Positions 3,001 through 6,000 of a stretch of 64,000 nt of DNA are shown one piece after another. Numbering within the stretch: position 1 is the stretch's first letter; the number at the start of each line of letters is the position of its first letter. Made by a program: the position numbers. The stretch is from Escherichia coli (GTDB taxonomy: Bacteria > Pseudomonadota > Gammaproteobacteria > Enterobacterales > Enterobacteriaceae), in the NCBI RefSeq assembly GCF_041248615.1, contig NZ_CP158426.1; one strand, given 5' to 3'.

Positions 3001-6000
3001 CGCTGATTGAGAGCATTCCTGAAGGTGGGCGAATGGATGTGAGCGCAGAGCGTTTACCTGAACTGGATGCCGATTTTGTTTTTGCAACCTGGCGCGGTGA
3101 CACCGGTGGTAAACCTCAGGATGAGCTGGCAGCAATGGAAAAAGTCATGCCGGGATGGTGTCAGTTTCTGACGGCCTGTCGTTCCGGGCGCTATGTGCTG
3201 ATTTCTCGTGAAGAGGCGATTTCTAACTCCTTTGCATCTCTGGGGCTGATGGCTGCGCAGATACAATCACAAATTGCGGGACGACCTCTACCGGAGGCTA
3301 AATGATCCAGAAAGACAAAACGCGGGTTGATATTTATGGTGAGCGTTTTCGCACTCGCGCGAGTCAGTTAACGCCTGGGTTAAGAACTGTCGCAAGCTAC
3401 ATTAATGAGCATCGTGAAGTGGTACTCGAGCAAACGGCGATGGAAATTGCGGCCACGTTGAACACTTCCGATGCCACAGTTATCAGGGCTATACAGGCTC
3501 TGGGGTTTGCCGGGCTGCGTGATCTGAAACGCACACTGGAACAGTGGCTTGGTCCAGCCCTTAGTTCCAGCGAAAAGATGTCTACGACGGTGAGTAACTT
3601 GACGAGCGATGTTAACACCGCAATCGACTTTGTTCTTGAAGGGCATTTGTATACTTGTAATGTCCTGTCAGAGCCTGAAAACCGCCACGCGCTTGCGCAA
3701 GCTGTAGCGTTGTTGGTGCAGGCACGGCAAGTCGCTATTTTTGGCATTGGCGCTTCGGGTATCCTGGCGGACTATACCGCACGACTATTCAACCGCATAG
3801 GTTTGCCTGCCACGGCACTAAACCGTACGGGTATTGGCCTTGCCGAGCAACTGATCGCGCTTCAACGTGGCGATGTTCTGATCATGATGGCGCAAAAATC
3901 TGCGCACCGGGAAGGGCTGACAACGCTTCGTGAGGCGAGGCGGCTGGGGATCCCTGTTATTTTGCTGACAAACGCGCTGGATTCACGTTTTAGCAAAGAC
4001 GCCAGTATCGTGATTCATGTTCCGCGCGGGGATGAAAAGGGGAAAACGCCACTACATGGTACGGTATTGTTGTGCCTGGAAATGATTGTTTGGTCGGTGG
4101 CTTCCGCGATGCCGCAGCGTGCGGTTAAAACCATTAAGCGAATTAACGATTTCCATCGGGGTTTGAAAACGGGAAGAAAGAATGGCTAATCTGACCTGAG
4201 GCCGGTAGCAACACCGGCCTCTTTTCAGGAATGTTAAATCCCCGGTTGCAGAATACGGATATTCATCTCCAGCACGTCGCCTTTTACGGCTTCGCTGTAC
4301 GCCTTCATGTGCGGGGTTTGCAGATGCGCTTCAAGATGCGCGATGCTTTCCCACTGCTCAATCATCACGATAGAATCCGGTGCCATAGACTGGAAACTCA
4401 CGCCAGCAGCGCAATCCACCATTGGCGCATAGCCGTGGCAACCTTCTTCTTTCAGTACGGTTGGAACGATTTTAGCAAACTGATCCAATACTGCCTGACG
4501 GTGATGTTGACCAGGACGAGTACGGATTTCTGCGATTACGGTAAGCATGGTTAACTCCTTCTAAAGCCTGAGCTCTAGTTAACCAAAAATTTCCACAAGA
4601 TGCTTGCGATATTCTTCAGTATAGCGGGGAACATCAGGCATTTTTATCACGTCATTAGCGATAAATGTCGGCAGCGGTTCCATGCCAAGGAATTGGTTTG
4701 CTTTATGGAACGGCAGATACACACCGTCAACGCCAACGCCGTGGAAGAACTGATCTTTTTCGGTGAAGGCTTCCATTGGTGCGTTCCAGGTCAGAGAAAG
4801 CATATATTTTTTGCCCTGTACCAGGCCGCCGGAACCGTATTTTTTCGACGGATCTTTGCGGGTACGACCATCGCTGGCATACAGCGTCCCGTGACCTTCG
4901 GTGAATACATCATCAATGTATTTTTTCACTGTCCACGGCGCGCCCATCCACCAGCCTGGCATCTGCCAAATCACCACATCAGCCCAGAGAAAGTTTTGTA
5001 CTTCCGCTTTGACATCGTAGTCGCTGTCGGCGCGAACGATGCGGACATCATGCCCGAGGTCGCGCAGTGTGCCATCCGCGACTTCGGTCAGGGTGTCGTT
5101 CAGTTGACCATTGGAGTGGGCGAATTTTTTCGCGCCGTTGATAATCAGGATGTTGCTCATTTTTTAACCTCAAGGTGAGACGTTTGTCGACTATAGTACG
5201 TCACAGAGCGGTACGGTGAAATTAGCAAAATGTGCAAAGTCTTTTGCTAATTTAGCAAAAGTCTGATCTTGCTCTGACTCACCGATGCAGGATAAATATT
5301 TTCTGAAAATGACAATACTGATAGCAATTTCTCATCATTCCAACTAGCACAGGGTTAATTTACAACGTTGGTGTGGACTTTCTGCGAGTTGATAATTGTG
5401 GTGATGCTGCCAACTTACTGATTTAGTGTATGATGGTGTTTTTGAGGTGCTCCAGTGGCTTCTGTTTCTATCAGCTGTCCCTCCTGTTCAGCTACTGACG
5501 GGGTGGTGCGTAACGGCAAAAGCACTGCCGGACATCAGCGCTATCTCTGCTCTCACTGCCGTAAAACATGGCAACTGCAGTTCACTTACACCGCTTCTCA
5601 ACCCGGTACGCACCAGAAAATCATTGATATGGCCATGAATGGCGTTGGATGCCGGGCAACCGCCCGCATTATGGGCGTTGGCCTCAACACGATTTTCCGC
5701 CATTTAAAAAACTCAGGCCGCAGTCGGTAACCTCGCGCATACAGCCGGGCAGTGACGTCATCGTCTGCGCGGAAATGGACGAACAGTGGGGATACGTCGG
5801 GGCTAAATCGCGCCAGCGCTGGCTGTTTTACGCGTATGACAGGCTCCGGAAGACGGTTGTTGCGCACGTATTCGGTGAACGCACTATGGCGACGCTGGGG
5901 CGTCTTATGAGCCTGCTGTCACCCTTTGACGTGGTGATATGGATGACGGATGGCTGGCCGCTGTATGAATCCCGCCTGAAGGGAAAGCTGCACGTAATCA

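What the first reader, a model, noticed from the sequence alone, without database searches (positions are those of the whole stretch)
5222..5261. Palindromic TTAGCAAAA repeats in the mdaB-ygiN promoter region
TTAGCAAAA-N11-TTTTGCTAA forms a 9-bp inverted repeat, followed immediately by a third direct copy (TTAGCAAAAG), 60-100 bp upstream of mdaB. The half-site resembles MarR/SlyA-family operators (TTAGCAAGCTAA-like). It could be the control site for this redox-stress operon, located just beside the IS1 junction.
Basis: inference. Interest (0 to 1): 0.3.

Follow-up and report, generated by a model that had tools for sequence, protein, structure and literature searches.

The report
mdaB promoter: LysR operator plus marbox
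The three TTAGCAAAA copies upstream of the quinone reductase gene mdaB are real and belong to a deeply conserved control region: a binding site of the kind used by the Neisseria regulator CrgA, whose little-studied E. coli counterpart is YafC, next to a MarA/SoxS/Rob activator site. It is not a MarR/SlyA operator.

Summary
The repeats exist exactly as described: 5222-5230 (+), 5242-5250 (-) and 5252-5260 (+), 62-101 bp upstream of mdaB. They are far above chance. The perfect 9-bp symmetry depends on a T at 5248, found in only about 4% of E. coli genomes; K-12 has TTTTGCgAA.

Across 80 Enterobacteriaceae mdaB loci, only the TTTTGC/GCAAAA cores are conserved. The TTAGC extensions of copies 2 and 3 lie in a hypervariable 7-nt spacer.

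Two elements emerge, read on the mdaB strand:
- **Dyad:** (G)ATTATTGC-N7-GCAAAAGAC, window 5261..5241, a T-N11-A dyad about 65 bp upstream of the inferred start.
- **Marbox:** TTTGCACATTTTGCTAATTT, 5238..5219, matching the marbox consensus at 12 of 14 positions and abutting the -35.

The dyad matches the published CrgA footprint in the Neisseria crgA-mdaB intergenic region. CrgA's close E. coli homologue is YafC. yafC sits divergently next to mdaB in Xenorhabdus and a related contig. The same dyad abuts yafC's own start codon in E. coli, Dickeya and Xenorhabdus, with one-base variants in Cronobacter and Photorhabdus.

Best reading: a YafC operator plus a MarA/SoxS/Rob marbox. MarR/SlyA is not supported. 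No binding was tested here.

The parts
5241..5261 (-). Unit A: LysR-type (T-N11-A) dyad CTTTTGC-TAAATTA-GCAAAAG on the mdaB strand. The centre is 5251, about -65 from the inferred start. Proposed YafC (CrgA-type) recognition site.
   Evidence: The half-sites are nearly invariant and the 7-nt spacer is variable in 65 distinct sequences from 80 loci. The dyad is retained where the marbox GCAC is lost. It matches the published CrgA footprint.
5219..5238 (-). Unit B: marbox-like 20-mer TTTGCACATTTTGCTAATTT, forward with respect to mdaB. It may also be the LysR activation site.
   Evidence: It matches AYnGCACnnWnnRYYAAAYn at 12 of 14 positions, which places it among 12 of about 128,000 20-mers in the window scoring 12 or more. 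It shares the 9-mer TTTTGCTAA with the K-12 mar marbox. mdaB belongs to the mar/sox/rob and RamA regulons.
5222..5230 (+).
5248..5248 (.). T/G polymorphism inside the variable spacer.
   Evidence: G in K-12, O157:H7, CFT073 and HET6. The T version is found in 219 of 5397 genomes.
5193..5198 (-). Inferred -10 hexamer TACTAT. It aligns with TAAAAT, TAGAAT, TATCAT or TAACAT in other genera.
   Evidence: Conserved GTAnAAT column block in the 81-sequence alignment. The transcription start has not been mapped.
5215..5220 (-). Weak -35 candidate TTCACC (4 of 6, 16-bp spacer), overlapped by 2 bp by the marbox.
   Evidence: Read directly. Inferred.
4234..5160 (-). mdaB (4579-5160) and ygiN (4234-4548), the regulated operon.
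   Evidence: ORFs; RefSeq annotation of the identical record NZ_LT599825.
5400..6167 (+). IS1 (768 bp). It replaces about 385 bp holding the ygiZ promoter and codons 1-89. It is context only and not part of the control site.
   Evidence: Annotation; comparison with the uninterrupted strain HET6.

Best explanation
The repeats are the half-sites of a composite activator region of the sigma-70 mdaB-ygiN promoter. Copies 2 and 3 (5241-5261) form the recognition dyad of a LysR-type regulator, TTTTGC-N7-GCAAAA, with the T-N11-A signature, centred about 65 bp upstream of the inferred start. The regulator is most probably YafC, the E. coli homologue of Neisseria CrgA, encoded elsewhere on the chromosome. 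Copy 1 together with the adjacent TTTGCAC (5219-5238) is a marbox that abuts the weak -35. Through it, monomeric MarA, SoxS or Rob (RamA in Salmonella) would activate transcription under salicylate, redox-cycling or bile-type stress. The same 20 bp probably doubles as the LysR activation site. By analogy with CrgA, YafC would sit on the dyad constitutively and activate mdaB when a quinone- or electrophile-derived signal appears. It would repress its own gene through an identical dyad that abuts the yafC start codon. What is shown here: the sequence, its conservation pattern, the motif matches and the gene neighbourhoods. What is inferred: the transcription start, every protein-DNA contact, and the direction of regulation.
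For: (1) The footprint over 80 loci shows ATTATTGC-N7-GCAAAAGACTTTGCACATTTTGC nearly invariant, a spacer at 0.2-0.5 bits, and then a conserved -10. (2) The dyad survives in distant Enterobacterales where mdaB lies between parC and parE without qseBC, and where GCAC of the marbox is lost (L093/L095, Shimwellia L091). (3) In contig L098 and in Xenorhabdus khoisanae L102, mdaB is divergently adjacent to a LysR gene that has dkgB on its other side, as in K-12. The L098 protein is the NCBIfam YafC equivalog (506.8 bits, cut-off 470) and is 75% identical to K-12 YafC. Both intergenic regions carry the dyad. (4) The published 63-bp CrgA footprint reads, towards mdaB, GATTATTTC-ATTTGAC-GCAAAAGTG. The enteric consensus is GATTATTGC-N7-GCAAAAGAC. 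CrgA activates the divergent mdaB. (5) The best solved-structure match of K-12 YafC is CrgA 3HHG (E 4e-113, full length). 52 of the first 65 residues are identical, including ANSAVSR, and the literature gives 59% identity overall. (6) TTTTGC-N7-GCAAAA abuts the yafC ATG in K-12 and Dickeya. Variants are GCAACA in Xenorhabdus, TTTTGT/GCAATA in Cronobacter and TTTTAC/GCAATT in Photorhabdus. (7) Marbox evidence: 12 of 14; the mar marbox contains TTAGCAAAA; mdaB is described as mar-regulon, MarA-activated and RamA-dependent.
Against: Nothing here shows binding. yafC lies outside the window. YafC ChIP-exo targets exist only in a supplement that is not held. A later ChIP-seq compendium could not fit a YafC binding model. 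The transcription start is unmapped; Merighi et al. failed to map it in Salmonella. The positions -65 and -42 therefore rest on a conserved -10 alone. The marbox lies 20 bp from the -10, whereas the gap I measured at micF and sodA is 18 bp. The promoter-proximal half of the marbox varies between genera (GCTAAT, GCTCAT, GCACAT). TTTGCAC also occurs in CrgA site 1, so unit B could belong to YafC rather than MarA, or to both. The exact mdaB marbox from Martin and Rosner 2002 could not be read.
Confidence: 0.62

Rival explanations
1. Both units are marboxes. Two MarA/SoxS/Rob monomers bind in tandem 21 bp apart, and no LysR protein is involved.
For: Unit A scores 9 of 14 in the window, or 9 fixed matches in the genus consensus (ATTGC..GCAAAA, by hand). 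It lies in the same orientation, exactly two helical turns upstream. MarA/SoxS/Rob/RamA control of mdaB is documented.
Against: Positions 6-7 of the would-be upstream marbox (AC of GCAC) fall in the hypervariable spacer. Unit A persists in taxa where the downstream GCAC is lost. The same dyad sits at the yafC start codon in five genera and inside the CrgA footprint of Neisseria.
Confidence: 0.12
2. MarR/SlyA-family operator. A winged-helix dimer would bind the TTAGC...GCTAA palindromes and repress mdaB.
For: TTAGC and GCTAA resemble the halves of the SlyA consensus TTAGCAAGCTAA (recalled). The window allele is a perfect 19-bp palindrome.
Against: The TTAGC/GCTAA bases of copies 2 and 3 are not conserved outside Escherichia and Salmonella. 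The spacing and order of the halves differ from SlyA sites. 96% of E. coli genomes lack the perfect symmetry.
Confidence: 0.04
3. A site for the neighbouring response regulator QseB (PreA), which activates mdaB-ygiN when over-expressed in Salmonella.
For: PreA over-expression raises mdaB 7- to 32-fold, and the authors proposed direct binding. qseC ends only about 105 bp upstream of mdaB in the ancestral arrangement.
Against: The qseB-ygiW intergenic region carries a direct repeat CTTAAG-N5-GTTAAG (8371-8387). This fits the PmrA-type box geometry, which I am recalling rather than testing. Nothing similar occurs at 5161-5264. The dyad is conserved where qseBC is absent.
Confidence: 0.06
4. A structural element rather than a protein site: an RNA hairpin ending qseC transcripts, or a DNA cruciform.
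For: The window sequence folds at -16.9 kcal/mol, z = -3.1. Spacer positions flanking the cores are complementary somewhat more often than column composition predicts (25 observed vs 15.2, and 30 vs 21.9). No co-transcription of preB and mdaB was detected in Salmonella.
Against: No U-tract follows the stem, and no terminator-like site was found. The 'loop' ACTTTGCACA is as invariant as the arms. Variants in the arms are not compensated. The element is kept where the upstream gene is parC (divergent), an ADH-like gene or yafC.
Confidence: 0.04

Closest known systems
CrgA operator in the crgA-mdaB intergenic region of Neisseria meningitidis (LysR-type regulator; structure 3HHG)
   Same: Same target gene (mdaB) and the same box and spacing: GATTATTtC-N7-GCAAAAGtg against GATTATTGC-N7-GCAAAAGAC. 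Both carry the T-N11-A signature. A TTTGCAC element lies downstream. The regulator's homologue (YafC) is 59% identical, with an identical ANSAVSR segment in the DNA-binding domain.
   Different: In E. coli the regulator gene is unlinked: yafC lies next to dkgB, far from mdaB. The second element lies about one helical turn closer to the dyad and has acquired a full marbox. Binding and the inducer are untested in E. coli.
[quoted passage not shown]
   Same: A 20-bp asymmetric site with GCAC and an A/T-rich spacer. TTTTGCTAA is shared verbatim with the mar marbox. It is in forward orientation and touches the -35, as in class II promoters.
   Different: The gap to the -10 is 20 bp, against 18 bp at micF and sodA. 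The site is embedded in, and may be derived from, a LysR activation site.
SlyA/MarR-family palindromic operators
   Same: Short A/T-rich palindromes containing TTAGC and GCTAA.
   Different: The half-site order and spacing do not fit, and the SlyA-like bases are unconserved spacer.

Membership tests
LysR-type regulator operator (CrgA/YafC type) | Interrupted dyad with the T-N11-A signature | tested here: met
   The dyad is TTGC-N7-GCAA, so T-(GC+7+GC)-A. The cores carry about 2 bits per position and the spacer 0.2-0.5 bits in 65 distinct sequences.
LysR-type regulator operator (CrgA/YafC type) | Recognition site near -65 with a second site near the -35 | tested here: inconclusive
   The dyad centre 5251 is 65 bp upstream of a start inferred 7 nt after the conserved -10. 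Unit B spans about -52 to -33. The start is not mapped.
LysR-type regulator operator (CrgA/YafC type) | Sequence match to an experimentally footprinted site of the same regulator subfamily | tested here: met
   CrgA site 2 from the 63-bp footprint matches the enteric consensus at 8 of 9 and 7 of 9 positions of the two halves, with identical spacing.
LysR-type regulator operator (CrgA/YafC type) | Regulator gene divergently adjacent to the target | tested here: not met
   This is not met in E. coli, where ygiZ or qseC lies upstream of mdaB and yafC sits beside dkgB. It is met in Xenorhabdus L102, contig L098 and Neisseria. Adjacency is usual for the family but not obligatory.
LysR-type regulator operator (CrgA/YafC type) | Same box at the regulator's own promoter (autoregulation) | tested here: met
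   TTTTGC-N7-GCAAAA directly abuts the yafC ATG in K-12 and Dickeya. Close variants are present in Xenorhabdus, Cronobacter and Photorhabdus.
LysR-type regulator operator (CrgA/YafC type) | Binding by the regulator and an effect on transcription | not testable with these tools
   This needs EMSA or footprinting, ChIP and reporter assays. The published YafC ChIP-exo target list is not held.
Marbox (MarA/SoxS/Rob/RamA site) | Match to AYnGCACnnWnnRYYAAAYn | tested here: met
   12 of 14 at 5238..5219. It is the only 20-mer scoring 11 or more between mdaB and 5300, and one of 12 scoring 12 or more in the window.
Marbox (MarA/SoxS/Rob/RamA site) | Class II geometry: forward orientation, overlapping the -35, fixed distance to the -10 | tested here: inconclusive
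   It is forward and overlaps the -35 candidate by 2 bp. The gap to the -10 is 20 bp, against 18 bp measured at micF and sodA.
Marbox (MarA/SoxS/Rob/RamA site) | Gene responds to the activators | not tested
   Literature only: mar regulon member, MarA-dependent, and reduced 3.2-fold in a Salmonella ramA mutant.
SlyA/MarR operator | Conserved palindrome of the TTAGCAAGCTAA type | tested here: not met
   No such 12-mer is present. The TTAGC/GCTAA bases of copies 2 and 3 are unconserved spacer.

The most novel reading that the evidence does not exclude
YafC, still listed as an uncharacterised E. coli transcription factor, is a quinone- or electrophile-responsive LysR regulator acting in trans. 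Its regulon would include mdaB-ygiN, yafC itself and possibly the hydrogenase-2 (hyb) operon. An exact TTTTGC-N7-GCAAAA lies 35 nt upstream of hybO at 30646-30664. In Enterobacteriaceae the MarA/SoxS/Rob marbox of mdaB would have arisen by overprinting YafC's activation site, so two stress circuits share, and may compete for, the same 20 bp.
Probability: 0.3. Interest if true: 0.6.

Novelty: new member of a known kind. Interest (0 to 1): 0.45.

Why it matters
mdaB-ygiN encodes a quinone redox-cycle pair that belongs to the multiple-antibiotic-resistance stress response. If the dyad is a YafC operator, this gives a concrete target, a binding motif and a testable physiological role (quinone or electrophile defence) to one of the remaining function-unknown E. 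coli transcription factors. It would also link yafC to a regulator-target pair already dissected structurally in Neisseria. And it shows how a global activator site (the marbox) can be layered onto an older dedicated operator. That matters when predicting mdaB induction by drugs, bile or plant phenolics.

Tried and rejected
- **Published mdaB marbox or start site.** Full-text searches for mdaB with marbox, MarA/SoxS/Rob, ChIP-seq or ChIP-exo, and for the sequence string itself, found no paper giving either. Martin and Rosner 2002 and Shi et al. 2016 (yafC*) are not held. The Gao 2018 supplement is not held.
- **Promoter scan.** The consensus scan found no mdaB-strand promoter, so the -10 was taken from cross-genus conservation instead.
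- **Hairpin or terminator.** Rejected; see the rival explanations.
- **QseB box.** Rejected on motif grounds.
- **STM3175/YgiV idea.** I considered whether the Rob-like AraC regulator STM3175 of Salmonella acts here. E. coli YgiV (8882-9364) is 160 aa, against the 288 aa I recall for STM3175, so I take it to lack the N-terminal DNA-binding part. I ran no domain search. I dropped the idea without a test.
- **Other regulators, compared from memory only.** Fur, CRP, PurR, TyrR, CytR, NtrC/sigma-54, CpxR and Ada consensus sequences did not fit in spacing or conserved bases.
- **Outgroups.** Acinetobacter and Neisseriaceae ESL0693 mdaB loci have no adjacent LysR gene and no clear dyad. They were uninformative.
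Full report
**Context.** The window is E. coli and is 100% identical to the NRZ14408 chromosome over this locus.
- mdaB (4579-5160) and ygiN (4234-4548) are on the minus strand.
- IS1 occupies 5400-6167.
- qseC and qseB follow at 6280-8285 on the minus strand.

**Observation.** TTAGCAAAA occurs at 5222-5230 (+), 5242-5250 (-) and 5252-5260 (+).
- The arms extend to 12 nt. Copies 2 and 3 form a second palindrome with 13-nt arms.
- The window holds five exact copies against 0.8 expected, and 0 of 100 shuffles reach five.
- The repeats are therefore real and non-random, 62-101 bp upstream of the mdaB ATG.
- The perfect symmetry is strain-specific. K-12, O157:H7, CFT073 and HET6 read TTTTGCgAA in copy 2.
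- Only 219 of 5397 genomes match the window over 5216-5264.

**Phylogenetic footprint.** A scan of one genome per species returned 80 mdaB loci from about 20 enterobacterial genera. On the mdaB strand the upstream region aligns almost without gaps:
- (G)ATTATTGC, then 7 variable nt, then GCAAAAGACTTTGCACATTTTGC-T(A/C)ATTT;
- then about 20 variable nt;
- then GTAnAAT, which is TACTAT in E. coli at 5198..5193.

The half-site columns carry 1.3-2.0 bits and the spacer 0.2-0.5 bits. The TTAGC/GCTAA extensions of copies 2 and 3, including the 5248 polymorphism, are spacer.

In genomes without ygiZ (O157:H7, E. albertii, Salmonella and most genera) the qseC stop codon lies a few nt upstream of the dyad. 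Homology between ygiZ-plus and ygiZ-minus E. coli ends at 5264. The whole control region is therefore about 105 bp.

**Unit B, a marbox.**
- The 20-mer 5238..5219, TTTGCACATTTTGCTAATTT, matches the marbox consensus (recalled from Martin et al. 1999) at 12 of 14 specified positions.
- It is one of 12 such 20-mers among about 128,000 in the window, and the only one scoring 11 or more in this promoter.
- The K-12 marRAB marbox, fetched here, is GATTTAGCAAAACGTGGCAT. It contains TTAGCAAAA verbatim.
- Unit B is forward-oriented and overlaps a weak -35 (TTCACC, 5220..5215) by 2 bp.
- The gap to the -10 is 20 bp, against 18 bp at micF and sodA. Class II membership is therefore plausible but not clean.
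- The literature places mdaB in the mar regulon, calls it MarA-activated, and reports it reduced 3.2-fold in a Salmonella ramA mutant.
- I could not read the paper that defined the site.

**Unit A, a LysR-type dyad.** TTGC-N7-GCAA is a T-N11-A dyad centred at 5251, about -65 from a start inferred from the conserved -10. It is older than the marbox.
- In Enterobacterales where mdaB-ygiN lies between parC and parE without qseBC, the dyad is intact while GCAC is lost. L093/L095 read ACTATTGC-GCCAGAA-GCAAAAGTC-TTTACCTG.
- In Shimwellia, L091 reads ATTATTGC-CGTGATC-GCAAAAGTA-TTTGTAC.

**Link to yafC by neighbourhood.**
- In contig L098, mdaB is divergently paired with a LysR gene. The 145-bp spacer holds GATTATTGC-TGTATGA-GCAAAAGAG-TTTGTGCATTTTTATC.
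- That protein is the NCBIfam equivalog of YafC (506.8 bits, cut-off 470) and is 75% identical to K-12 YafC. It keeps dkgB on its other side, as in K-12.
- Xenorhabdus khoisanae shows the same dkgB-yafC<>mdaB arrangement. A single dyad there abuts the yafC ATG and lies about 83 nt from the mdaB ATG.

**Link to CrgA.**
- In Neisseria meningitidis the LysR regulator CrgA activates the divergent mdaB and represses itself through two footprinted T-N11-A sites.
- The same paper names YafC as CrgA's close E. coli homologue at 59% identity.
- The 63-bp footprint printed in its Methods reads, towards mdaB, CATCTGATTATTTC-ATTTGAC-GCAAAAGTG-TTTTCTTATTTTTGCAC. That is the enteric box with one change per half and identical spacing, followed by a TTTGCAC element.
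- K-12 YafC's best solved-structure match is CrgA 3HHG (E 4e-113, residues 1-293).
- 52 of the first 65 residues are identical, including the segment ANSAVSR. Conserved DNA specificity is therefore expected. This step is an inference.

**The same box at yafC itself.** The dyad abuts the yafC start codon in five genera:

| Genome | Sequence ending at the yafC ATG |
|---|---|
| E. coli K-12 | TTTTGC-AACAGGA-GCAAAA-ATG |
| Dickeya | TTTTGC-TGGAGAA-GCAAAA-ATG |
| Xenorhabdus | TTTTGC-AGGAATA-GCAACA-ATG |
| Cronobacter | TTTTGT-CGACGGA-GCAATA-ATG |
| Photorhabdus | TTTTAC-AAGAAAG-GCAATT-ATG |

This is the arrangement expected for LysR autorepression. An 81-bp segment holding the yafC start and this dyad matches 5423 of 5426 E. 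coli genomes.

**Mechanism proposed.** YafC occupies the dyad at about -65, and unit B serves as its activation site. A quinone- or electrophile-derived signal would switch it to activation, by analogy with CrgA and alpha-methylene-gamma-butyrolactone. MarA, SoxS and Rob use the marbox that has formed within unit B. The two systems may cooperate or compete. All contacts and the direction of regulation are inferred.

**State of knowledge.** The accessible literature still treats YafC as uncharacterised. RegulonDB credits its first interactions to ChIP-exo data whose target list I could not read. No held paper links YafC to E. coli mdaB. The only two that mention both do not make the link. Whether the link is already recorded in a supplement or database remains open.

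**Rivals.**
- **Tandem marboxes.** This fails because the AC of the putative upstream GCAC is unconserved and the dyad outlives the marbox.
- **MarR/SlyA.** This fails on conservation and geometry.
- **QseB.** This is unlikely. The qseB-ygiW region has a CTTAAG-N5-GTTAAG direct repeat, absent here, and the dyad exists without qseBC.
- **Hairpin or terminator.** This is unlikely: no U-tract, an invariant 'loop', uncompensated arm variants, and only a weak excess of spacer complementarity.

**Verdict.** The marbox component is known biology. The YafC-operator assignment is a well-supported comparative prediction, a new member of the CrgA-type LysR operator class. It is of moderate interest because it makes the function of a y-gene regulator directly testable.

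Noticed in passing
window 30646-30664: A second exact TTTTGC-N7-GCAAAA dyad (TTTTGCGATTGAGGCAAAA) lies 35 nt upstream of the hybO (hydrogenase 2) start codon. With one mismatch allowed, only these two matches occur, against 0.53 expected. The surrounding 81 bp are at least 99% identical in 5395 of 5418 E. coli genomes. It may be a further site for the same regulator, or chance.
   Followed up: partly
window 5400-6233 (compare L085 2699-3149): IS1 (768 bp) has no flanking target duplication and replaces about 385 bp present in strain HET6. That segment holds the ygiZ promoter and codons 1-89, so only the last 65 nt of ygiZ remain. This looks like an IS1-mediated adjacent deletion rather than a simple insertion.
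   Followed up: partly
window 5264/5265; L003 3060-3075; L004 3100-4400: The segment between mdaB and qseC is a variable spot in E. coli. It is absent in O157:H7 (109-bp spacer, as in Salmonella). It holds ygiZ alone in K-12, and an Hcp-family type VI gene, a hypothetical gene and ygiZ in CFT073. The left boundary of every variant lies about 5 nt upstream of the dyad.
   Followed up: partly
window 6223-6231: A fourth TTTTGCTAA lies at the 3' end of the ygiZ remnant. In this lineage it creates a stop codon one codon earlier than in K-12 (TGC TAA against TGC TAT TAG). This looks coincidental.
   Followed up: no
window 8371-8387: The qseB-ygiW intergenic region contains the direct repeat CTTAAG-N5-GTTAAG, which has the geometry of PmrA/QseB-type boxes.
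   Followed up: no
window 8882-11080: ygiV (160 aa) is followed directly by ygiS. I recall that K-12 carries the mqsR-mqsA toxin-antitoxin pair between these two genes; it appears to be absent in this strain. A siderophore ABC transporter and an RpiR-family regulator (2295-4189) lie beside ygiN, where K-12 has parE.
   Followed up: no
L051: A contig labelled Chryseobacterium sp. 18061 carries an enterobacterial-type qseC-mdaB junction with the full conserved block. The record is probably contaminated or mislabelled.
   Followed up: no
L005-L084, spacer of the dyad: Spacer bases next to the TTGC/GCAA cores are complementary more often than column composition predicts (25 vs 15.2 and 30 vs 21.9 of 65 sequences). 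Several genera therefore have extended palindromes such as TTGCGC...GCGCAA or TTGCTG...CAGCAA. Citrobacter sp. R56 has independently arrived at the same perfect TTGCTAAATTAGCAA as the window.
   Followed up: partly
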